NCBI GenBank assembly: GCA_024407875.1 | Contig: JAKSVT010000003.1 | Span: 19,563-83,562 of the forward strand | DNA: 64,000 nt | DNA from: Alphaproteobacteria bacterium | GTDB taxonomy: Bacteria; Pseudomonadota; Alphaproteobacteria; CAAGCB01; CAG-977 | Direction of reading: 5' to 3' | Shown: piece after piece, positions 14,683 through 21,541 of the stretch | Layout of the letters: every line of letters begins with the position of its first letter | Position numbering within the stretch: position 1 is the first letter of the stretch | Made by a program: the position numbers and the translations under genes | Notes under the pieces: generated by a model | Database searches by the model: none | What the model was told of the DNA's origin: nothing | The model's input: the letters and a program-made list of their open reading frames with translations, nothing else

Positions 14683-15510
14683 ATGACTACGACAGCGACA
14701 GGTATTCAGACGCTTTCGAATGCTGTATCTAACGGAACAGATTCGTCGTCTTCAAAAACAAAATTGTTCGATGATATGCAAGCGTTCTTGTATTTGCTTA
14801 CACAACAATTGCAATATCAGGATCCATTGGACCCAATGGATACAGCAGAATATACCAATCAATTGGTACAATATGCTGAAGTTGAACAATCTATTCAACA
14901 GAACTCATATTTAGAGACTATCATTAATCAAAATATTAATGCTATGTCAGCTCAATCTGTTAATTACATGGATAAAACAGTTCAAGCTTTATCTGATAAA
15001 GTTCCTTTACAAGACGGATATGCAAAATTTGCCTACGTATTAGAAGATGATGCACAAAATTGTACAGTAACAATTACAGATGCTTCAGGCAACTATGTAA
15101 AAAGTATTAATACGGAAACAACATCTGGCCGTCATGAGTTATCATGGGATGGTAAAGATAATAATGGTAATCAATTACCTGATGGGGCATATAAGATTAT
15201 TGTTACAGCTTCAAATCATTCTGGTGAAACAGTTGGTGTTAAAAAATATGCTTACGGTAAAGTTACGGGTGTTGCATATGATGGTGCTGATGTGGCTGTA
15301 GCAATGGGTGATGTTGCAGTAGATATGAATAGTGTTGTGGCTATCCATCCAAATTCAATTTTAGATCATGGAAATTCACAACAAAGAGCTGCAACAGATG
15401 AAATCTTAGACAAAGTTGAAGAGATTTCTCAAAACGTTGCTCAATTCGTAAATCAATATAATACAAATTTAGATAATAAAACCTCAGGAACGGCTGATGC
15501 CGCTGTCTAA
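14683..15510 (+). CDS. flgD: Hook capping protein FlgD
   Basis: FLYLLTQQLQYQDPLDPMD, WDGKDNNGNQLPDGAY motifs. Confidence 0.95.
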   Translation: MTTTATGIQTLSNAVSNGTDSSSSKTKLFDDMQAFLYLLTQQLQYQDPLDPMDTAEYTNQLVQYAEVEQSIQQNSYLETIINQNINAMSAQSVNYMDKTVQALSDKVPLQDGYAKFAYVLEDDAQNCTVTITDASGNYVKSINTETTSGRHELSWDGKDNNGNQLPDGAYKIIVTASNHSGETVGVKKYAYGKVTGVAYDGADVAVAMGDVAVDMNSVVAIHPNSILDHGNSQQRAATDEILDKVEEISQNVAQFVNQYNTNLDNKTSGTADAAV

Positions 15511-15540: not shown

Positions 15541-18500
15541 ATGAGTTTATTTGGTGCTTTAAAAACAGGTGTTTCAGGATTAACGGCTCAATCTTCTTCA
15601 ATGACCATTATTTCTGATAATATTGCGAACGTAAATACAGTTGGCTATAAAGCTAATTCTGCAAGCTTTTCAACTTTAGTTACAAAACAAACATCTTCAA
15701 CAAATTATTCTAGTGGTGGTGTTTTCTGCCGTGTACGTGAAGGTATTGATGCACAAGGTTTGTTGTCATCAACATCTAACGCAACAGATATTGCTATTTC
15801 TGGGGATGGTTTCTTTGTAACAACAGCCGTAAGTGTACCTGACGGTGATGATATGTATTCATATACACGTGCAGGTTCCTTTGGTATTGATAAAGAAGGT
15901 TATTTGGTTAACGAAAATGGCCAATATTTACAAGCATGGACTTTAATGAGCTATGATGGTACATCTACAGCAAATACAATTACTGTAAACAACAATACCT
16001 ATATGAAAGCTTATACAGATACAAGAGGTAAAACGGTTTATATTAATGATAACATCATTGATGCTGAAAACTTGCAAGCTGTTAACTTAAATCGTATTGG
16101 TGGTACAGCTCAAGAAACAACAGAAATTCAATTCGGTGCTAACTTACCAGCTGACGATCCTATTTTTGATCCAGGTAATCCTGAAGCTGGTGGTCGTTAT
16201 ACATCTGCTGTATTAATGTATGACTCTTTAGGTAATTCTCACAACGTTGAAATGATCTTTACAAAGACAGGTACAGGAGCATGGGACGTTGATATGGGAT
16301 TGCCAACAGGGGTATCATCATTAGTTTCTTACTCAAATGCAGAATCAACAAATGATGCAAGTCCAGATGTTTATGCTGCAGCAGCTCAATTAGAATTCAA
16401 TAAAATTCCATCAAACCACTCAACAATTGGTATTGAAATTGAGGGAATTAACTATGTATTTGAATTCTCTTCAGATGGAACAAAATCATATAATCCATTA
16501 CCAAATGAACAAGTTATTATGGTTGATACTTCAGCTGGTATTGTAACAGTAGAAGATGCTGTAAAAGCTTTATATACTGAAATGCAAGGAATTTTACCAG
16601 GAGCAGGTAGATTTTCTATGGGCTCAAATGGTATGTCAATTCAAGTACGTCAATCAACAGCAGGTTCATCTGTAAGATTTAATTGTTCTGGATGTTATGC
16701 TTGTTTACAATCTCAAACAAATCCAGATCCACAAACAGGTATTGCAACAGGTTATTTTGAAATGCCTGAGATCGACTGGGATGTAAAAAATACAGCACGT
16801 ATTGAATTTACATCAACGAAGTCAAGCGACTACTTAAACAAAACTATTACTCTTGGCCAAAATATTTATAAATTTACAAATAAAGATGAAGTTTCTGATG
16901 GTATAATTTGCGTAAATATTGATAGTGCTGTTGATAGAGTAACAAATACTGTTGACGTAGTTAAAATGGTTGGTTTGTTAAAAGCAAAAATCAATGATAT
17001 AGAATTGGATCCAGAACGCTTTATAGCAAGTGGTTCAACATTAGAAATTGAACCAAATCCAACAGGTGAAAATATTTTATTAAATACAAGTGCTGGTTCA
17101 GCTTTAGTATTTACATGTAATATTTTAGCATCATATGCTAACCAAGTTGTAAATATTAATGGCAAACAATATAAATTTATTAAAGATGATTCTCATGCAA
17201 CAGGTGATGTTGATGGTGATACAGTATTTGTAAGCTTGGCAGGATTAGCTGGTCAAGATAGAACAGATGCATTGCCAATAGCTGTTGTTAATGAACTTAA
17301 AAATGCAATTGATGCTTACTATGCAAAGAATAATGACTTTGATACAGCAAACTATTTTGCTATTAAAGGAAATAAGATTACTGCAGCATCTGATGATATG
17401 AGCATGAGTGTTGAATCTATTCCTTCTTATAAAAAGACATTAACATTTAGTGAAACTAATGCAAAAAATTATGATAATAAGACAATTGATATTGATGGAA
17501 TAACATATAGATTTTCTTTATGGGATCAAACAGGTACTGAAGCTGATGGTACAGTAACAGTAGGTTTGTTAGATAAGGGAGCTATTAGTACAGAAAAATT
17601 AGATTTCGTATCTAGTGATGGTGTATTCCATTTTGATAAAAATCTTGTAGGTAAAAACCTAACAATAGGTAACAAAATTTACGGATTTAAGAAATATGGA
17701 GCTATTTCAGGAAATGAAATTGCTTTAGTCCAAGATCAACAAATTAAATTAGATAGTGTAGCAGCGGGTGATACATTAGTAATTAAAGGAACAACATACA
17801 CATTTAAAAATAATGCAGATGCTTCTGTAAAAACAGATGTTTATAAGAGTGATGCTACACATTGTTGTATTGCTAATGGAAGAACATTTGAAATTCCTGA
17901 TAAAACAGGTACTGGTACAATTACATATACTTTCTATGATCCAGCAAATTATGAAGCACATAAGACAGAAGATAACGTGTTTAAAGTAGATTATACAGGT
18001 TTGGATTTGGGAACAGAAAATGGTGTGCAAGCAGCTTTGGCACGTACATCTAACTATTTAAAGAGTTTGATGTCTGCATTACCTGATAGTTTAGGCAAAT
18101 CATCAGTATCAGAAACAGCAAGCACAGTTTCTTTATCATTCTCTCCATATTGCTATGTTGATTTAGATACATCAAATTTAGGAGAAACATTCTCAAGAAA
18201 TATTAATAAGTTAGATAGCAATACTCCAGCTTCATATTCAGATGGGACAACAGTAAACTTATCAGGAACAACGCTTGGAAAAATTACAGGAACAGGAAGT
18301 TTTTCAAATGGAGCAGTTGGTACTGAAGGAAATACTGAAGATGGTTCAATTAAAAATGTAACTGAATATATGACAAATTCACTTAAGACATTAGCTACGT
18401 TAACAGGAGGTAGTTATAGTGCAGGTGTAATTACATATAATGATAGTAACTGCTTAAAATTAGAAAAGGCTGCATCTATCGGTGATGATGTTTGTGCAAT

Positions 18501-19440
18501 TAGTTTAACAACAACATCTAATGCAGCAATGAATGCTTTAGGGGATGCTGCTGGTAAATTAGCATATGTTACATCTAATACAATGAATATTACATACGTT
18601 AGAGGTGAAGATGATCCAATTCCTGCTGAAAAAGCATTAATTGGTGATGTTAACCAAACAACAGATGGCAATATTACACCAGTAAATGTAACAGCAAATC
18701 AACAAGGATTGCAAAGTGCAGTTACAGTAACAGGTAAAAATAATGGTAACCAATCAGGTCAACCAGTAACATTTGGAGCTGGAGAAAAATCAACAGCTGG
18801 TAAGTTAGTATTAACTAATAAATTTAGCTTTAATAACATTAAAGCATCACAGGTTGGTAATAAAATTGCAGGTGTTTCATTTAACGCAGATGGTACTCCT
18901 TCAGCAGTTAATATCAATAATTTAGCTTTCGAATGGTGTAATGGTGCAGCTGATATGACAGGAAACTATTACGAAAGTACACAAGTTAATTTGTTCTTAG
19001 GTAATGAGAATACAGCAACAGGCTTGACTCAATTATCTGGAGCGTTTACAACAAACTTTATTAGCCAAAATGGTGCAAAGTTTGGTTCATATACAGGCGT
19101 TTCAATATCAGAAGACGGTGTTGTAACAGCAATCTTTGACAATGGTCAAACACGTCCTATTGCTCAAATTCCTGTGGCTACATTTGTAAACGCAAACTCT
19201 ATGGAAGCTTTGACAGGTAATATTTGGATTGAAACAACCGGTTCTGGCAATGCAACACTTCGTACTGCTGGAGAAGGAGGTTCCGGTACAATTACTGCCT
19301 CATCTTTGGAAGATTCAACCGTTGATATCGCTAACGAATTTACAAATATGATTACGACACAACGTGCTTATTCCGCAGCTTCAAAGATTATTACTACATC
19401 TGATGATATGTTGGAAGAATTGATTAACATCAAACGTTAG
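15541..19440 (+). CDS. flgE: Very large flagellar hook protein FlgE (1299 aa)
   Basis: ISDNIANVNTVGYK, DIAISGDGFF, YTRAGSF, YDSLGNSH, LEDSTVDIANEFTNMITTQRAYSA motifs, with a large central insertion. Confidence 0.93.
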   Translation: MSLFGALKTGVSGLTAQSSSMTIISDNIANVNTVGYKANSASFSTLVTKQTSSTNYSSGGVFCRVREGIDAQGLLSSTSNATDIAISGDGFFVTTAVSVPDGDDMYSYTRAGSFGIDKEGYLVNENGQYLQAWTLMSYDGTSTANTITVNNNTYMKAYTDTRGKTVYINDNIIDAENLQAVNLNRIGGTAQETTEIQFGANLPADDPIFDPGNPEAGGRYTSAVLMYDSLGNSHNVEMIFTKTGTGAWDVDMGLPTGVSSLVSYSNAESTNDASPDVYAAAAQLEFNKIPSNHSTIGIEIEGINYVFEFSSDGTKSYNPLPNEQVIMVDTSAGIVTVEDAVKALYTEMQGILPGAGRFSMGSNGMSIQVRQSTAGSSVRFNCSGCYACLQSQTNPDPQTGIATGYFEMPEIDWDVKNTARIEFTSTKSSDYLNKTITLGQNIYKFTNKDEVSDGIICVNIDSAVDRVTNTVDVVKMVGLLKAKINDIELDPERFIASGSTLEIEPNPTGENILLNTSAGSALVFTCNILASYANQVVNINGKQYKFIKDDSHATGDVDGDTVFVSLAGLAGQDRTDALPIAVVNELKNAIDAYYAKNNDFDTANYFAIKGNKITAASDDMSMSVESIPSYKKTLTFSETNAKNYDNKTIDIDGITYRFSLWDQTGTEADGTVTVGLLDKGAISTEKLDFVSSDGVFHFDKNLVGKNLTIGNKIYGFKKYGAISGNEIALVQDQQIKLDSVAAGDTLVIKGTTYTFKNNADASVKTDVYKSDATHCCIANGRTFEIPDKTGTGTITYTFYDPANYEAHKTEDNVFKVDYTGLDLGTENGVQAALARTSNYLKSLMSALPDSLGKSSVSETASTVSLSFSPYCYVDLDTSNLGETFSRNINKLDSNTPASYSDGTTVNLSGTTLGKITGTGSFSNGAVGTEGNTEDGSIKNVTEYMTNSLKTLATLTGGSYSAGVITYNDSNCLKLEKAASIGDDVCAISLTTTSNAAMNALGDAAGKLAYVTSNTMNITYVRGEDDPIPAEKALIGDVNQTTDGNITPVNVTANQQGLQSAVTVTGKNNGNQSGQPVTFGAGEKSTAGKLVLTNKFSFNNIKASQVGNKIAGVSFNADGTPSAVNINNLAFEWCNGAADMTGNYYESTQVNLFLGNENTATGLTQLSGAFTTNFISQNGAKFGSYTGVSISEDGVVTAIFDNGQTRPIAQIPVATFVNANSMEALTGNIWIETTGSGNATLRTAGEGGSGTITASSLEDSTVDIANEFTNMITTQRAYSAASKIITTSDDMLEELINIKR

Positions 19441-19542
19441 TAATTAAGAACAATAAAATAATTCAGAAAGTGTTTTGGTAGAATTTCAAAACAAAAAAAG
19501 GAAGAATTCCTTAAAATATAAATAGAATGTTTAGAAATTTAT

Positions 19543-19717
19543 GCCAGAATGGCGATAGCAGAAAGCTGTATTTCAATAGAATATTGTCGCCAGAATGGTA
19601 TACTTATTAGGTAAAGATATAGAATAATATCATATAAAAAATAGAATATTTGGTTTAGAAAGCTAGAAAGGTGATAGCAGAAAGCTGTTTCGACAGAATG
19701 TTGTCGCCAGAAAGGTA
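19543..19717 (+). repeat. Imperfect direct repeat, ~57 nt x2 (19543-19600 and 19662-19717), four hairpins per copy
   Basis: GCCAGAATGGCGATAGCAGAAAGCTGTATTTCAATAGAATATTGTCGCCAGAATGGTA vs GCTAGAAAGGTGATAGCAGAAAGCTGTTTCGACAGAATGTTGTCGCCAGAAAGGTA. Confidence 0.92.
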
Positions 19718-19738
19718 AAAAATCAAAATAGAATATTT

Positions 19739-19780
19739 ACAAAATTGGGGTGCAAAGAATGGCACTCCATTTTTGTTTTT
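19739..19780 (+). terminator. Intrinsic terminator closing the AGAA array
   Basis: TGGGGTGC-AAAGAATG-GCACTCCA followed by TTTTTGTTTTT. Confidence 0.8.
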
Positions 19781-19795
19781 GAAATTATGGTAAAT

Positions 19796-19826
19796 AAAAA
19801 ACCCGTCAAAATCTTGACGGGCTTTT
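19796..19826 (-). terminator. rpmB terminator (possibly bidirectional)
   Basis: CCCGTCAA/TTGACGGG stem flanked by A and T tracts. Confidence 0.8.
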
Positions 19827-19845
19827 AAATTCTTCAAACAAGCGA

Positions 19846-20148
19846 TTATTTTGCTTCAGCTGTTTTCTTTTGTGCTGCTGACAAAACGCTCTTCTTTAAG
19901 CATTTTGCATCATAAGACAAGCGGCTGTTTGGTGTGCTGATTAAGAAAGCATCCAATCCACCGTTAGCTTCGATTGTGCGTAATCCACGTGTTGAAACAC
20001 GTAAAGCAACTGTTTTACCGAGAGCTTCACTTAACAATGAAACAACTTGCAAATTTGGTAAAAATCTGCGACGTGTTTTGTTGTTAGCATGAGAAACATT
20101 GTTTCCTGTTTGTACGCCTGTTCCTGTAATAATGCAACGTCTGGACAT
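19846..20148 (-). CDS. rpmB: 50S ribosomal protein L28
   Basis: MSRRCIITG...[20 protein letters not shown], alphaproteobacterial long form. Confidence 0.97.
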
Positions 20149-20380
20149 ATCTTTAATTCCTTTTAAACAAAATGTTGTACGCGCTTTTTACATTTATTTT
20201 GCGATAAAGTCAAGTAAAAACAATCAATAGAAGGAAAATTATTTTTTCCTTTGTTTGATTTTAAAATTTTTCAATGAGATATAAGCATATATATACTCTA
20301 TATTTAATATTTGTTGAAATTCTAGAAAAATTTGATAAAAATATGTAAATTTTAATTTTTTATTAATAAGGCTAAATGAA

Positions 20381-21541
20381 ATGAAAGTTGGAAGAATTAA
20401 AGTAAGCAATGTAGTACTCCACACATTTATGATGGGACTATGTTTTGGAGTAGGTTGGGAACTTAAAGAAAAGTTGACACCTAAGAGTGATATGTCATGG
20501 GCTTTTCAGACTCCTTACGTTGTAACAGCTCAGGTTGAAACAAAAACCATAGCTCCAGAGAAAAAGTATATTGCTTCTGTTGAAGCTATCAATGGTGTTG
20601 ATGTTAAAGCACAAGTTACAGGCTATTTAGATAAAATCTTATTTACTGAAGGTGCTTATGTTAGAAAAGGTGATGTTCTTTTTGTTATTGAACAATCAAA
20701 ATATATTGAAGCTGTAAATTCTGCTGAAGCTGATGTTGCTCGTATTTCTGCTGACTATAAGCGCGTTTCCAACGATCATAAGAGAAATATGGTTTTATAC
20801 AAACAAGAGGTTTTGACAGCAAGTGAAATTGAAGCTTCCGAATCCGAATTGCAACAAACAAGAGCTGCTTTAAAAGCTGCTCAAGCAGGATTAGAAGTTG
20901 CAAAAATTAACTTAGGCTATACAGAAGTAAAATCTCCAATTAATGGTTATATTGGTAAGGCCTTAATCACAAAAGGAAACTTCGTTGATATGTCAGGAAA
21001 AGCTATGGCAAGAATAGTTCAAATATCACCGATTCGTGTTTCTTTTTCTATTTCTGATCGTGATCGTTTAGAAGCAATCAAAAATATGAAAAATAATAAA
21101 ATTGATATTAAGAAAAATTTTAAAGTTCGTTTGCCTGATAATGAAATTATGCCATTTAATGTAATTGATGTTTTCTTTGATTCTGAAATTAATGCAGCAA
21201 CAGCTACAGTAGCTTCTTATTTGGATGTTGAAAATCCAGATAAATTATTGTTGCCAGGAAACCATGTTGATGCAATTTTAGTTGTTGGTGAAAATAAAGA
21301 TTATTTATTAATTCCTCAAGGAGCTATTGTCCAAGATGAATTAGGAGTTTTCGTTTATAGAGTTGATACAAAGGAAAATGGCAAAAAGGTTGCTGTTAAA
21401 GCTTATATCAAAACTGGAGAACAAATTGACGATAAAATTATCGTAACAGAAGGCTTGAATCCATCTGATAAAATTATTGTTCAAGGTCTTCAAAAAGTTG
21501 ATAACGGTGTTGAAGTTAATACTTCTGACTTAGTTAAGTAA
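20381..21541 (+). CDS. RND efflux periplasmic adaptor (MFP)
   Basis: VDVKAQVTGYL, EGAYVRKGDVLF, LGYTEVKSPING motifs. Confidence 0.92.
   Translation: MKVGRIKVSNVVLHTFMMGLCFGVGWELKEKLTPKSDMSWAFQTPYVVTAQVETKTIAPEKKYIASVEAINGVDVKAQVTGYLDKILFTEGAYVRKGDVLFVIEQSKYIEAVNSAEADVARISADYKRVSNDHKRNMVLYKQEVLTASEIEASESELQQTRAALKAAQAGLEVAKINLGYTEVKSPINGYIGKALITKGNFVDMSGKAMARIVQISPIRVSFSISDRDRLEAIKNMKNNKIDIKKNFKVRLPDNEIMPFNVIDVFFDSEINAATATVASYLDVENPDKLLLPGNHVDAILVVGENKDYLLIPQGAIVQDELGVFVYRVDTKENGKKVAVKAYIKTGEQIDDKIIVTEGLNPSDKIIVQGLQKVDNGVEVNTSDLVK

What the first reader, a model, noticed from the sequence alone, without database searches (positions are those of the whole stretch)
19445..19780. CsrB/RsmZ-like sponge RNA architecture with a changed code (AGAA instead of AGGA) directly after flgE
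Seen: AGAA starts at 19447, 19465, 19480, 19503, 19524, 19533, 19546, 19560, 19578, 19592, 19621, 19643, 19657, 19665, 19679, 19695, 19709, 19730 and 19756. Most sit at the apex of short stems with different stem sequences: TGTTTTG-gtAGAAttt-CAAAACA, AAGGA-AGAAT-TCCTT, TAAAT-AGAAT-GTTTA, TGCC-AGAAT-GGCG, ATAGC-AGAAA-GCTGT, CAAT-AGAAT-ATTG, AAAT-AGAAT-ATTT, CGAC-AGAAT-GTTG. The terminator loop also contains AGAAT. Seven copies read CAGAA(T/A)G. Known: E. coli CsrB is a similar-sized RNA with many CAGGA(U/A/C)G loop motifs that titrates CsrA. Inference: this is a multivalent decoy for an RNA-binding protein that reads AGAA loops, such as a specificity-shifted CsrA or an alphaproteobacterial flagellin regulator like FlbT/FlaF. 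No terminator separates it from flgE, so it may be co-transcribed with the sigma54 hook operon and couple hook synthesis to release of late flagellar translation. I know of no described RNA of this kind.
Basis: partly seen in the sequence, partly recalled or inferred. Interest (0 to 1): 0.92.

Follow-up and report, generated by a model that had tools for sequence, protein, structure and literature searches.

The report
AGAA-loop decoy RNA after flgE
Just after the flagellar hook gene of an uncultured gut alphaproteobacterium lies a roughly 330-base non-coding RNA that shows about nineteen AGAA motifs, mostly on small hairpin loops; it is built like the CsrB/RsmZ protein-sponge RNAs with one letter of the motif changed, and it probably soaks up a flagellar RNA-binding protein.

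Summary
The flgE–rpmB spacer (19441-19780, + strand) holds 19 AGAA and no TTCT. Eleven AGAA sit in good hairpin loops, against 0.5 in shuffles, and this is the densest AGAAW stretch in the genome and the only non-coding one. It has no coding potential and ends in an intrinsic terminator whose loop also carries AGAA.

The sister species has an unalignable flgE-downstream sequence with the same design: 11 AGAA, consensus C-AGAA-N-G, and an AGAA terminator loop. Both RNAs give sub-threshold matches to Rfam PrrB_RsmZ, with the model's GGA loops aligned to AGAA loops. Contigs from two RNA libraries cover the element. Strain variants keep the pairing and spare the motif.

Neither genome has CsrA or FliW; both have FlbT, FlaF and Hfq. 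FlbT's N-terminal β-domain shows weak but better-than-control profile similarity to CsrA, and FlbT is modelled as a β-sheet homodimer. Flagellin 5' UTRs in both species carry an (A)GAA-loop hairpin.

Best reading: a Csr/Rsm-like multivalent protein decoy with a changed motif, carried on or derived from the flgE 3' UTR, with FlbT as the leading candidate partner. Binding and function are not shown. It was seen in only two sister species.

The parts
15541..19440 (+). flgE, flagellar hook protein, 1299 aa. The element starts right after its stop codon.
   Evidence: ORF. Pfam Flg_bb_rod, LlgE_F_G_D1, FlgE_D2 and Flg_bbr_C. flgD lies upstream at 14683-15510.
19441..19780 (+). The AGAA-loop RNA as a whole. 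The 5' end is unknown and could lie anywhere from the flgE stop to about 19466. The 3' end is the terminator T tract.
   Evidence: 19 AGAA, 0 TTCT, 61% purine. Fold z = -7.4. Stops in all six frames. RNA-library contigs cover 19466-19706 and 19676-19776.
19471..19493 (+). Hairpin with an 8-bp stem and loop UAGAAUU.
   Evidence: The strain variant 19479 T>C changes UAGAA to CAGAA, which stays within the motif consensus.
19498..19512 (+). Hairpin AAGGA-AGAAU-UCCUU.
   Evidence: The variant 19499 A>G turns A-U into G.U, so the pair is kept.
19519..19533 (+). Hairpin UAAAU-AGAAU-GUUUA.
19542..19601 (+). Module A. The GGCGA/UCGCC helix (19551-55 with 19587-91) encloses two AGAA hairpins, 19555-19569 (AUAGC-AGAAA-GCUGU) and 19574-19586 (CAAU-AGAAU-AUUG). 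It is flanked on each side by CAGAAUGG. The alternative local hairpin UGCC-AGAAU-GGCG lies at 19542-19554.
   Evidence: MFE; pairs listed. Variants 19553 C>T (C-G to U.G) and 19568 G>A (U.G to U-A) keep the pairing.
19616..19631 (+). Hairpin GAUAU-AGAAUA-AUAUC.
19639..19718 (+). Module B, a duplicate of module A plus its upstream hairpin. It comprises AAAU-AGAAU-AUUU (19639-19651), GAUAGC-AGAAA-GCUGUU (19673-19689), CGAC-AGAAU-GUUG (19691-19703) and the GGUGA/UCGCC helix.
   Evidence: Direct repeats D1 and D2, 76-87% identical. The two copies differ by a two-sided change: CAAU/AUUG becomes CGAC/GUUG, so U-A becomes C-G. The Rfam RsmZ model aligns its GGA loops here.
19726..19738 (+). Hairpin AAAU-AGAAU-AUUU.
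19746..19780 (+). Intrinsic terminator: 8-bp stem (5 G-C pairs), loop AAAGAAUG, then TTTTTGTTTTT.
19802..19821 (.). Second G+C-rich hairpin (CCCGTCAAAATCTTGACGGG) between the element and rpmB. It probably serves as the terminator of the convergent rpmB and as a back-stop for the + strand. It is not part of the AGAA array.
19846..20148 (-). rpmB (ribosomal protein L28), convergent neighbour.

Best explanation
The flgE-rpmB spacer encodes a structured, purine-rich non-coding RNA of about 310-340 nt. It is read from the + strand and ends at the intrinsic terminator at 19746-19780. No terminator and no sigma-70-like promoter separates it from flgE. It is therefore most simply the 3' UTR of the hook-gene transcript, possibly trimmed to a stable RNA.

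The RNA presents about 15-19 copies of a Y-AGAA-N-R motif. Most are pentaloops on short hairpins with unrelated stem sequences, and a few sit in single-stranded junctions. This is the design of the CsrB/RsmZ sponges with the central G of A-GGA changed to A.

I infer that it works as a multivalent decoy that binds many copies of a dimeric RNA-binding protein recognising AGAA loops. By doing so it would set how much of that protein is free to act on mRNAs.

The leading candidate partner is FlbT, the alphaproteobacterial post-transcriptional regulator of flagellin. The likely competing targets are the flagellin 5' UTRs, which in both sponge-bearing species carry an (A)GAA-loop hairpin plus AGAA next to the Shine-Dalgarno sequence.

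Shown: motif enrichment, loop placement, strand bias, conservation of design without conservation of sequence, presence in RNA libraries, and absence of CsrA.

Inferred: protein binding, the identity of the partner, titration, and the link to hook expression.
For: Motif and structure statistics:
- 19 AGAA against 3.2 expected, and 11 in hairpin loops against 0.52 in shuffles.
- 0 TTCT on the same strand.
- Genome-wide top AGAAW density and the only non-coding stretch among the densest.
- Fold z = -7.4.

Conservation of design:
- Among 27 flgE loci of the family, only the closest relative G007 (FlgE C-terminus 81% identical) has an AGAA cluster after flgE.
- There it has 11 AGAA, 9 with stem score 3 or more and 6 with 4 or more (shuffles: mean 0.4, maximum 3).
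- C stands at position -1 in 9 of 11 and G at +5 in 10 of 11, and the terminator GGGAGUUC-AGAAC-GAACUCCC also carries the motif.
- The two sequences do not align by blastn or tblastx. Fold z is -6.0.

Likeness to RsmZ: both RNAs hit Rfam PrrB_RsmZ below threshold (21.7 and 22.6 bits, gathering score 44), with the model's GGA loops laid on AGAA loops.

Covariation:
- The duplicated modules differ by a two-sided stem change, U-A to C-G.
- Of 5 strain variants inside the RNA, 3 lie in stems and all 3 keep pairing. One changes UAGAA to CAGAA, one is unpaired, and none touches an AGAA.

Expression: contigs from two RNA libraries of two studies lie on 19466-19706 (241 nt, 0 differences) and 19676-19776 (3 differences).

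Partner:
- CsrA (PF02599) was not found in G000 or G007 even at E <= 10. FliW was not found in G000.
- FlbT, FlaF and Hfq are present in 4 of 4 genus genomes tested.
- The FlbT model (pLDDT 90.8) has five N-terminal β-strands followed by helices.
- hhalign of FlbT residues 1-55 against a 33-sequence CsrA alignment gives P 2.1e-4 over 39 columns (FlbT 3-41 to CsrA 2-46). FlbT's invariant E11 and R39 fall on CsrA E10 and R44. None of 200 column-shuffled controls reach the score (maximum 22.9 against 25.9).
- An FlbT homodimer is modelled with score 0.42 against a best control of 0.00 among 3 controls. That mark was reached by 20 of 30 proteins solved as pairs of one chain and by 1 of 23 solved as single chains. 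The runs agree in at least 97% of contacts, and partner pLDDT is at least 85. My own alignment was used, so these counts hold only roughly. The interface is residues 2, 15-25 and 27-35, which is the β-domain.

Targets:
- Two G000 flagellin 5' UTRs have AAAUUC-AGAAU-GAGUUU or AAUUU-AGAAU-GAAUU about 65-80 nt upstream, plus GGAGAAAU at the SD.
- G007 has GUUAUCGC-AGAA-GCGGUGAU plus AAAGAAGGAGACAGAAC before the ATG.
Against: - No binding data of any kind exist.
- The RNA motif of FlbT is unknown. A 2015 review table leaves it blank.
- The element is in only 2 of 28 family genomes, and those are sister species. The other 25 flgE loci have a plain terminator after flgE or no AGAA cluster, yet FlbT is present in the two other genus members tested. 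FlbT clearly works without such an RNA.
- The link between FlbT and CsrA is weak. Full-length hhalign gave E 0.17 over 15 columns. Pfam shows no CsrA hit. Sequence searches of the PDB were negative. Foldseek on the monomer model gave nothing at E <= 0.001.
- AGAA next to the SD of flagellin may simply extend the Shine-Dalgarno pairing with the 16S 3' tail. That tail sequence is recalled, and the 16S gene is not assembled here.
- Of 58 intergenic AGAAN pentaloop hairpins genome-wide, only 2 are in flagellin leaders. Ten genes with such a hairpin just upstream were translated and inspected by eye only; none looked flagellar.
- In the MFE fold some AGAA lie in internal loops rather than hairpin loops.
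- RNA-library contigs cannot give strand or ends and may contain DNA.
- Part of the array is a recent duplication.
Confidence: 0.55

Rival explanations
1. It is a cis-acting 3' UTR of flgE. The AGAA hairpins recruit a protein, which may be the same AGAA reader, to the hook mRNA itself. This would control its stability, translation or localisation, rather than titrating the protein away from other targets.
For: No terminator and no sigma-70-like promoter lies between the flgE stop and the array. The element is tied to flgE in both species. The G000 and G007 FlgE proteins are unusually long, about 1300 aa against 870-1260 in most relatives.
Against: Nineteen sites is far more than a cis element needs. 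The design matches known trans-acting sponges. An RNA-library contig lies wholly inside the array, although that cannot tell a separate RNA from a UTR.
Confidence: 0.2
2. It acts through RNA-RNA pairing. The AGAA loops would kiss or pair with UUCU-containing RNAs, for example the pyrimidine-rich 3' tail of 16S rRNA or UUCU loops of another RNA. It would then be an RNA sponge or ribosome-interacting element rather than a protein decoy.
For: Loop-displayed 4-5-nt motifs are the usual geometry for kissing contacts. AGAAAGG, present in some copies, is complementary to the alphaproteobacterial 16S tail (sequence recalled, not from a call) (contexts).
Against: The fifth loop base and the bases after the motif vary: U/A in G000 and C/A in G007. 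Complementarity therefore stays at only 4 nt. There are no TTCT on this strand and no partner array was found. The 16S gene is not assembled, so this could not be tested.
Confidence: 0.08
3. It is a passive array of 3' hairpins that protects the flgE transcript from 3' exonucleases or separates it from convergent rpmB transcription. The recurrence of AGAA would be a by-product of duplication and A-rich composition.
For: It lies between convergent genes, holds an internal duplication, and sits in an A+T-rich genome of 31% G+C.
Against: Shuffles that keep composition never reach the counts. The sister species keeps the motif in loops while all stems differ. Strain variants avoid the motif. A single terminator suffices in 25 of 27 relatives' flgE loci.
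Confidence: 0.07
4. It acts at the DNA level, as an array of AGAAT direct repeats bound by a DNA-binding protein (iteron-like or nucleoid-associated), or as single-strand DNA hairpins.
For: The motif is oriented and repeated at 8-29 bp spacing.
Against: The constant part is the centre of each palindrome and the arms vary, which is the reverse of what dimeric DNA binders show. The array ends in a canonical intrinsic terminator that also carries the motif. It is present in RNA libraries. It is single-copy, with no replication or partition genes nearby.
Confidence: 0.03

Closest known systems
CsrB/CsrC/RsmX/RsmY/RsmZ sponge RNAs (Rfam clan CL00106; PrrB_RsmZ RF00166)
   Same: Similar size. Both have many short hairpins with unrelated stems that all display one short purine motif in the loop, extra copies in single-stranded linkers, and a Rho-independent terminator at the end. 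The motif context is C-A-G-x-A-(U/A/C)-G closed by a C-G pair. The Rfam RsmZ model aligns its GGA loops to the AGAA loops in both species.
   Different: The motif is AGAA, not A(N)GGA, and the whole RNA has only one GGA. Scores of 21.7 and 22.6 bits are far below the 44-bit gathering score. No CsrA gene was found in either genome. It sits directly behind flgE with no terminator between, whereas the known sponges are, as far as I recall, separate genes. The host is an alphaproteobacterium.
FlbT/FlaF control of flagellin translation in Caulobacter and Brucella (Anderson & Gober 2000; Ferooz 2011; Ardissone 2020)
   Same: The genome encodes FlbT (PF07378, 130 bits) and FlaF. In that system the regulated object is the flagellin 5' UTR, and here the flagellin leaders carry the same loop motif as the array.
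   Different: I saw those three papers only as citations and summaries inside passages of PMC4347634, PMC7591256 and PMC4894983. Those passages describe no RNA antagonist of FlbT and no defined RNA motif. There FlbT activity is set by flagellin (FljJ) and secretion, not by an RNA. Whether FlbT binds AGAA loops is untested.
CsrA-FliW-flagellin partner switch (Bacillus, Campylobacter, Borrelia)
   Same: It is a flagellar checkpoint in which a small dimeric RNA-binding protein represses flagellin translation at a leader hairpin plus the SD. In Campylobacter the flagellin mRNA itself titrates the protein (PMC4894983: abstract, and passages). That paper's discussion calls FlaF/FlbT a possibly analogous system.
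   Different: FliW was not found in G000 (not searched in G007), and CsrA was found in neither genome. The antagonist proposed here is an RNA array, not a protein.
CrcZ/CrcY (Hfq/Crc sponge) and other protein-decoy sRNAs
   Same: They share the principle of several copies of a short A-rich motif on one RNA competing with mRNAs for a protein. Hfq is present here.
   Different: As I recall, CrcZ motifs are unstructured AANAANAA tracts read by the distal face of Hfq. Here the motif is a pentaloop on a hairpin and has at most two A-R-N triplets.
Flagellar UTR-derived sRNAs of E. coli
   Same: These regulatory RNAs are cut from the 3' or 5' UTRs of flagellar mRNAs, so a flagellar gene's transcription also delivers a regulator.
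   Different: Those are Hfq-dependent base-pairing sRNAs without a repeated loop motif.

Membership tests
Rfam PrrB_RsmZ (RF00166) / Csr-Rsm sponge clan | Covariance-model score at or above the curated gathering score (44 bits) | tested here: not met
   21.7 bits for window 19642-19777 and 22.6 bits for L125 3231-3350.
Rfam PrrB_RsmZ (RF00166) / Csr-Rsm sponge clan | Repeated A(N)GGA motifs in hairpin loops and linkers | tested here: not met
   One GGA/AGGA in 340 nt against 19 AGAA. The loops align to the model's GGA loops but read AGAA.
Rfam PrrB_RsmZ (RF00166) / Csr-Rsm sponge clan | A CsrA/RsmA-family protein in the same genome | tested here: not met
   PF02599 gave no match in G000 (96.6% complete) or G007 (97%), even at E <= 10. 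The control genomes gave matches.
Rfam PrrB_RsmZ (RF00166) / Csr-Rsm sponge clan | Many short hairpins with variable stems and a terminal Rho-independent terminator | tested here: met
Rfam PrrB_RsmZ (RF00166) / Csr-Rsm sponge clan | Own promoter with an upstream GacA/UvrY box | not tested
   Only a sigma-70 consensus scan was run. It found no + strand site between 19200 and 19780.
Any Rfam 15 family | A match reaching a family's gathering score | tested here: not met
   20 matches at E <= 10 over 19200-20400, none near its gathering score.
FlbT (Pfam PF07378), the candidate partner | Score above the 27-bit gathering score over the full profile | tested here: met
   130.2 bits, profile positions 1-125 of 125, protein at G000 C6:20916-21320 (-).
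CsrA fold/superfamily, asked of the FlbT N-terminal domain | Detectable sequence-profile homology to CsrA | tested here: inconclusive
   Pfam shows no hit. Full-length hhalign gave E 0.17. N-domain against diverse CsrA gave probability 45.9%, P 2.1e-4 and 39 columns, with 0 of 200 shuffled controls reaching the score.
CsrA fold/superfamily, asked of the FlbT N-terminal domain | Five-stranded β-domain followed by a helix, forming a β-sheet homodimer | tested here: inconclusive
   The AF2 model has strands at 3-7, 12-15, 18-21, 27-31 and 37-39, then helices. The dimer model scores 0.42 against 0.00 for the best control, with the interface at residues 15-35. Foldseek of the monomer model finds no CsrA chain. 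The interleaved CsrA topology was not checked.
3' UTR-borne or 3' UTR-derived sRNA | No terminator between the upstream ORF and the RNA, and a shared terminator at the 3' end | tested here: met
   The same arrangement is seen in G007.
3' UTR-borne or 3' UTR-derived sRNA | A mapped 5' end (processing site or internal promoter) | not testable with these tools
   Only Logan contigs were available for the RNA runs. They give no ends and no strand.

The most novel reading that the evidence does not exclude
FlbT is a diverged CsrA-fold dimer whose recognition code is A-G-A-A instead of A-G-G-A. The alphaproteobacterial FlbT/FlaF flagellin checkpoint would then be the evolutionary counterpart of CsrA/FliW. 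In this gut lineage it has acquired its own RsmZ-like sponge written into the 3' UTR of the hook mRNA, so that transcription of flgE directly delivers the antagonist that frees flagellin mRNAs for translation.
Probability: 0.3. Interest if true: 0.9.

Novelty: new variant of a known kind. Interest (0 to 1): 0.78.

Why it matters
Protein-sponge RNAs of the Csr/Rsm type are known mainly from Gammaproteobacteria and always use GGA. Here the same design appears with a one-letter change of motif, in an alphaproteobacterium without CsrA. That would show the design has arisen, or been retuned, for another reader.

It would also give the first concrete candidate RNA motif for FlbT. The review table I read leaves FlbT's target sequence and mechanism blank. 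A simple EMSA with AGAAU against AGGAU hairpins would test the idea.

If FlbT's β-domain really is CsrA-like, two flagellar checkpoints thought to be only analogous (CsrA/FliW and FlbT/FlaF) would be linked by descent. Placing the array on the hook mRNA also suggests a direct way to couple an earlier flagellar class to late translation.

Limits: the organism is an uncultured gut MAG lineage, only two sister species carry the element, and everything about function is inferred.

Tried and rejected
- DNA similarity of the element to 40 relatives found only chance 20-30-nt matches.
- Among 27 flgE loci of the family, 80 genome-contig loci and 80 metagenome loci, plus the other loci held by then, only G000 and G007 (the latter held twice, as L011 and L125) show an AGAA-hairpin cluster. 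The next-best windows are coding, in hflX and fliF.
- The pattern CAGAANG x3 in the 28 family genomes gave real hits only in G000 and G007. The other hits were short tandem repeats or coding sequence.
- The same pattern over 401 alphaproteobacterial genomes hit 117 genomes, mostly tandem repeats or coding sequence. The reversed control pattern also hit often, so the result is uninformative and I did not follow it further.
- Coding potential is rejected. There are stops in all six frames in G000. The 87-aa minus-strand frame of G007 has no counterpart in G000, and tblastx found nothing better than E 0.006.
- A dispersed repeat is rejected, because the element is single-copy in the genome.
- No sigma-70-like promoter was found on the + strand in 19200-19780. 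Sigma-54 and sigma-28 promoters were not searched.
- Searches linking FlbT to CsrA that gave nothing: Pfam at E <= 10, PDB sequence search with the single protein and with the profile, Foldseek against the PDB, full-length hhalign, and ESM Atlas with no usable hit.
- The genome-wide list of intergenic AGAAN pentaloop hairpins revealed no regulon beyond the flagellin leaders.
- The 16S 3' end could not be checked because the rRNA is not assembled.
- Read laying: in RNA run X10 nothing of this organism covered flgE 18900-19319 or rpmB. In X19 nothing covered flgE. Gaps in contig cover prove nothing, and I do not use them as evidence for a separate transcript. The X19 contig stops matching at 19776 but carries a loose end, so it does not mark a 3' end.
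- Literature searches found no described AGAA-loop sponge, no RNA antagonist of FlbT, and no flgE 3' UTR sRNA of this kind. The searches were FlbT + CsrA, FlbT + flagellin + mRNA, flgE + 3 UTR + sRNA + sponge, and Alphaproteobacteria + CsrA + RsmZ + GGA motif + titrat. I read only listings, abstracts and 'find' passages of PMC4894983, PMC4347634, PMC13277936 and PMC7591256. Supplements were closed, and subscription papers (Anderson & Gober 2000; Ardissone 2020) were not seen.
Full report
WHAT IS THERE

The window is contig C23 of a 1.77-Mb, 31% G+C genome in 47 contigs, 96.6% complete. The finding lies in the 405-nt spacer between flgE (15541-19440, +, 1299 aa; Pfam hook and rod domains) and the convergent rpmB (19846-20148, -). 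flgD precedes flgE.

Record titles of the nearest flgE loci describe uncultured gut Alphaproteobacteria MAGs from horse faeces, rumen and human gut.

All 19 AGAA positions and all quoted stems are correct.
- The 340 nt from 19441 to 19780 have 19 AGAA, 0 TTCT and a single GGA, and are 61% purine.
- Genome frequency predicts 3.2 AGAA. In 2000 dinucleotide shuffles the mean was 5.5 and the maximum 12.
- Eleven motifs sit in loops closed by stems scoring 4 or more. Shuffles gave mean 0.52 and maximum 7. Genome-wide only 9.6% of 32,384 AGAA do so.
- In 300-nt windows over the whole genome this is the top AGAAW density (17). The six other high-density stretches I printed (14 down to 11 per window) each hold a long open frame and read as K/E-rich coding sequence.
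- The + strand folds far better than shuffles (z = -7.4), and the - strand less so (z = -4.5).
- All six frames carry stops.
- The array ends in an intrinsic terminator (19746-19769 plus T tract) whose loop reads AAAGAAUG. A second G+C hairpin at 19802-19821 lies before rpmB.
- No terminator and no sigma-70-like promoter lies between the flgE stop and the array.
- About 80 nt is duplicated (19520-19600 against 19639-19717, 76-87% identity), so the motifs are not all independent.
- The two copies differ by a two-sided stem change: CAAU-AGAAU-AUUG against CGAC-AGAAU-GUUG.

CONSENSUS AND ARCHITECTURE

Context tables give Y-AGAA-(U/A)-G in G000. Position -1 is a pyrimidine in 16 of 19, and +5 is G in 11 of 19. 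Position -1 pairs with +5 (C-G, U-A or U.G), so the unit is an AGAAN pentaloop on a short stem.

Two modules place a GGYGA/UCGCC helix around two such hairpins, with CAGAAUGG on either side. In the MFE fold those flanking copies lie in internal loops. As in RsmZ, some motifs are therefore in linkers rather than hairpin loops.

RELATIVES

BLAST-level similarity to 40 relatives is absent. I fetched the flgE 3' end from all 28 family genomes and read downstream.

Only the closest relative, G007, has a cluster. Its FlgE C-terminus is 81% identical, and its FlgE is likewise about 1300 aa.
- It has 11 AGAA in 260 nt, 9 with stem score 3 or more and 6 with 4 or more (shuffles: mean 0.4, maximum 3).
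- C stands at -1 in 9 of 11, and G at +5 in 10 of 11.
- The fifth loop base is C or A instead of U or A.
- The terminator GGGAGUUC-AGAAC-GAACUCCC-U6 again carries the motif.
- Fold z is -6.0.
- The two RNAs do not align.

What is conserved is therefore the motif, its display and the position, not the sequence.

The other 25 loci show a plain terminator after flgE followed by fliF or other genes. Scans of 80 further genome loci, 80 metagenome loci and all other fetched loci found no third case. A CAGAANG x3 pattern search found no convincing extra copy in the family and was uninformative class-wide.

LIKENESS TO RsmZ

No Rfam family reaches its gathering score. Both the G000 and the G007 RNA nevertheless give their best low-E match to PrrB_RsmZ: 21.7 bits (E 0.002-0.014) and 22.6 bits (E 0.0046), against a gathering score of 44.

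The printed alignment for G000 puts the model's ...GCAgGAaGC... and ...CaGGAuG... loops on GCAGAAAGC and CAGAAUG. This is a likeness of design, not membership.

EXPRESSION AND POPULATION VARIATION

Nineteen public runs from 10 studies hold all or part of the stretch, two of them RNA libraries. I laid two RNA and two DNA runs.
- An RNA-library contig of 241 nt lies wholly on 19466-19706 with no difference.
- A contig from another study's RNA library lies on 19676-19776 with 3 differences, alongside an rpmB contig.
- Contigs give neither strand nor ends, and RNA libraries can hold DNA. This shows presence in RNA libraries, no more.

The two DNA runs give five variants inside the RNA.
- 19479 T>C changes UAGAA to CAGAA.
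- 19499 A>G changes A-U to G.U.
- 19553 C>T changes C-G to U.G.
- 19568 G>A changes U.G to U-A.
- 19570 A>G is unpaired.
- None touches an AGAA, and all three stem changes keep pairing.
- The numbers are small, but they point the way an RNA-structure constraint predicts.

WHO READS AGAA?

CsrA (PF02599) is not found in G000 or G007 even at E <= 10, while the control genomes give matches. FliW is not found in G000. FlbT, FlaF and Hfq are present in all four genus genomes tested.

FlbT of G000 (134 aa, next to a flagellin/FlgL-like gene) was modelled from 51 homologues. The model has pLDDT 90.8 and shows five short β-strands (residues 3-39) followed by four helices.

Tests of a link between FlbT and CsrA:
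- Foldseek, Pfam and PDB sequence searches give no link.
- Full-length hhalign aligns only 15 columns (E 0.17).
- Restricting FlbT to residues 1-55 and widening the CsrA alignment to 33 sequences gives probability 45.9%, P 2.1e-4 and 39 columns (FlbT 3-41 to CsrA 2-46).
- In that alignment FlbT's invariant E11 and R39 fall on CsrA's invariant E10 and R44.
- None of 200 column-shuffled CsrA profiles reaches the score (maximum 22.9 against 25.9), and the reversed profile scores 8.7.
- R44 is, as I recall from the CsrA mutagenesis literature, the key RNA-binding residue. That statement comes from no call.
- This was the fourth variant of the comparison I tried, so I treat it as a hint.

A two-copy model of FlbT passes the tool's mark. 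The score is 0.42 against a best control of 0.00 among 3 controls. The mark was reached by 20 of 30 proteins solved as pairs of one chain and by 1 of 23 solved as single chains. Contacts agree at 97% or more, and pLDDT is at least 85. My own alignment was used, so these counts hold only roughly. The interface is residues 2, 15-25 and 27-35, that is, strands 3-4 of the β-domain. A dimer with two RNA-binding faces is what a multivalent hairpin array would fit.

POSSIBLE TARGETS

Two G000 flagellin genes (C17, C5) have an AGAAU-loop hairpin 65-80 nt upstream and GGAGAAAU at the SD. G007's flagellin has a 9-bp hairpin with an AGAA tetraloop and AAAGAAGGAGACAGAAC before the ATG.

Of the 25 flagellin leaders I extracted, 20 carry AGAA on both sides of the SD, typically CCAAGAAAAGGAGAA. 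The three leaders of genus g3 read C(A/C)CAG(A/T)AAGGAGUAA, and G000's two have it only after the SD. In the six relatives' leaders I folded, the upstream AGAA was not in a hairpin loop.

This fits a leader-hairpin-plus-SD operator of the CsrA-hag type. It may equally be an extended Shine-Dalgarno sequence; the 16S gene is not assembled, so I could not check. Genome-wide, 58 intergenic AGAAN pentaloop hairpins exist: 7 in the array and 2 in flagellin leaders. Ten genes with such a hairpin just upstream were translated and inspected by eye only; none looked flagellar.

MECHANISM

Commitments:
- 0.85 that this is a functional structured RNA whose function depends on displayed AGAA loops.
- 0.55 that it is a multivalent protein decoy of the Csr/Rsm kind.
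- About 0.35-0.4 that the protein is FlbT.

The steps are inferred as follows. flgE transcription reads into the array. The array, as a UTR or a trimmed RNA, binds several dimers of the AGAA reader. This changes how much reader is free for the flagellin leaders.

The sign of the effect cannot be predicted. According to a review passage, FlbT destabilises or represses flagellin mRNA in Caulobacter but is reported as an activator in Brucella.

The main rival, at 0.2, is a cis role on the flgE mRNA itself.

KNOWN OR NEW

Searches for FlbT with CsrA, FlbT with flagellin mRNA, flgE 3' UTR sRNA sponges, and Csr-type sponges in Alphaproteobacteria found no described RNA of this kind and no RNA antagonist of FlbT.
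- I read only listings, abstracts and passages.
- One passage calls FlaF/FlbT a possibly 'analogous' system to CsrA/FliW.
- A review table leaves FlbT's RNA motif and mechanism open.
- I could not read the primary FlbT papers or any supplements.

I class the element as a new variant of a known kind: a protein-sponge RNA with a changed motif, a new likely partner and an unusual 3' UTR location.

VERDICT

Its interpretation is partly supported and remains the best reading. The narrow distribution (two sister species of uncultured bacteria) and the lack of any binding evidence are the main reservations.

Noticed in passing
window 15541-19440; relatives: FlgE is very long here (1299 aa) and in G007 (about 1301 aa). 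Family relatives range from about 870 to 1263 aa. The extra length lies between the conserved N- and C-terminal rod/hook domains. The two species with the longest hooks are the two with the AGAA array.
   Followed up: no
G000 C6:20916-21320 (-) and alignments A1/A2: The N-terminal approximately 40 residues of FlbT give a weak but better-than-control profile match to CsrA, with the invariant Glu and Arg aligned. FlbT is also modelled as a β-sheet homodimer. A homology statement did not appear in the passages I read.
   Followed up: partly
L288 (G012:C4) and L289 (G041:C38), around position 1500 on the - strand of each locus: Three to four tandem 11-nt units (TAGCAGAATGG-like) sit in the spacer immediately upstream of a divergently oriented gene in two genus-g4 genomes. 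They share the CAGAATG heptamer with the array but lack hairpins. They are probably unrelated, perhaps a promoter-region repeat.
   Followed up: partly
L011 / L125 (G007), 300-566 nt downstream of flgE: After the G007 array the contig ends in two copies of a repeat of about 100 nt (AATAATCAATTTTAGTGAGAT ... GAGAACAAATGGAG ...). This is probably a dispersed repeat that broke the assembly, so the gene downstream of the G007 array is unknown.
   Followed up: no
window 19676, RNA run X19 (table 7): The X19 RNA-library contig carries 21 unlike letters (AGAAAGGTAAAAACAAAAACA) just before 19676. They resemble the sequence after module B (19709-19729). This suggests a strain in which the modules are arranged or numbered differently.
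   Followed up: no
Flagellin leaders, loci L097-L114: The 5' UTRs of flagellin genes are strongly conserved across the family even where genome G+C differs greatly. Shared features are a TGGGCAAAAATTGCCTATTGAA box, a GGCCGAAGCGCC hairpin, a GNRA-capped hairpin, and CCAAGAAAAGGAGAA before the ATG. This looks like a structured regulatory leader worth its own analysis.
   Followed up: partly
G000 contigs C5, C10, C17, C7: There are at least four flagellin paralogues, and two of them lie at contig ends (C5, C10). The flagellin repertoire of this MAG is therefore incompletely assembled.
   Followed up: no
Family genomes, same genus g1: Members placed in the same genus differ sharply in base composition. 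G000 is 31% G+C, while the flgE-downstream and fliF sequences of G001-G003, G005 and G006 are visibly G+C-rich. G000 and G007 form a distinct A+T-shifted pair.
   Followed up: no
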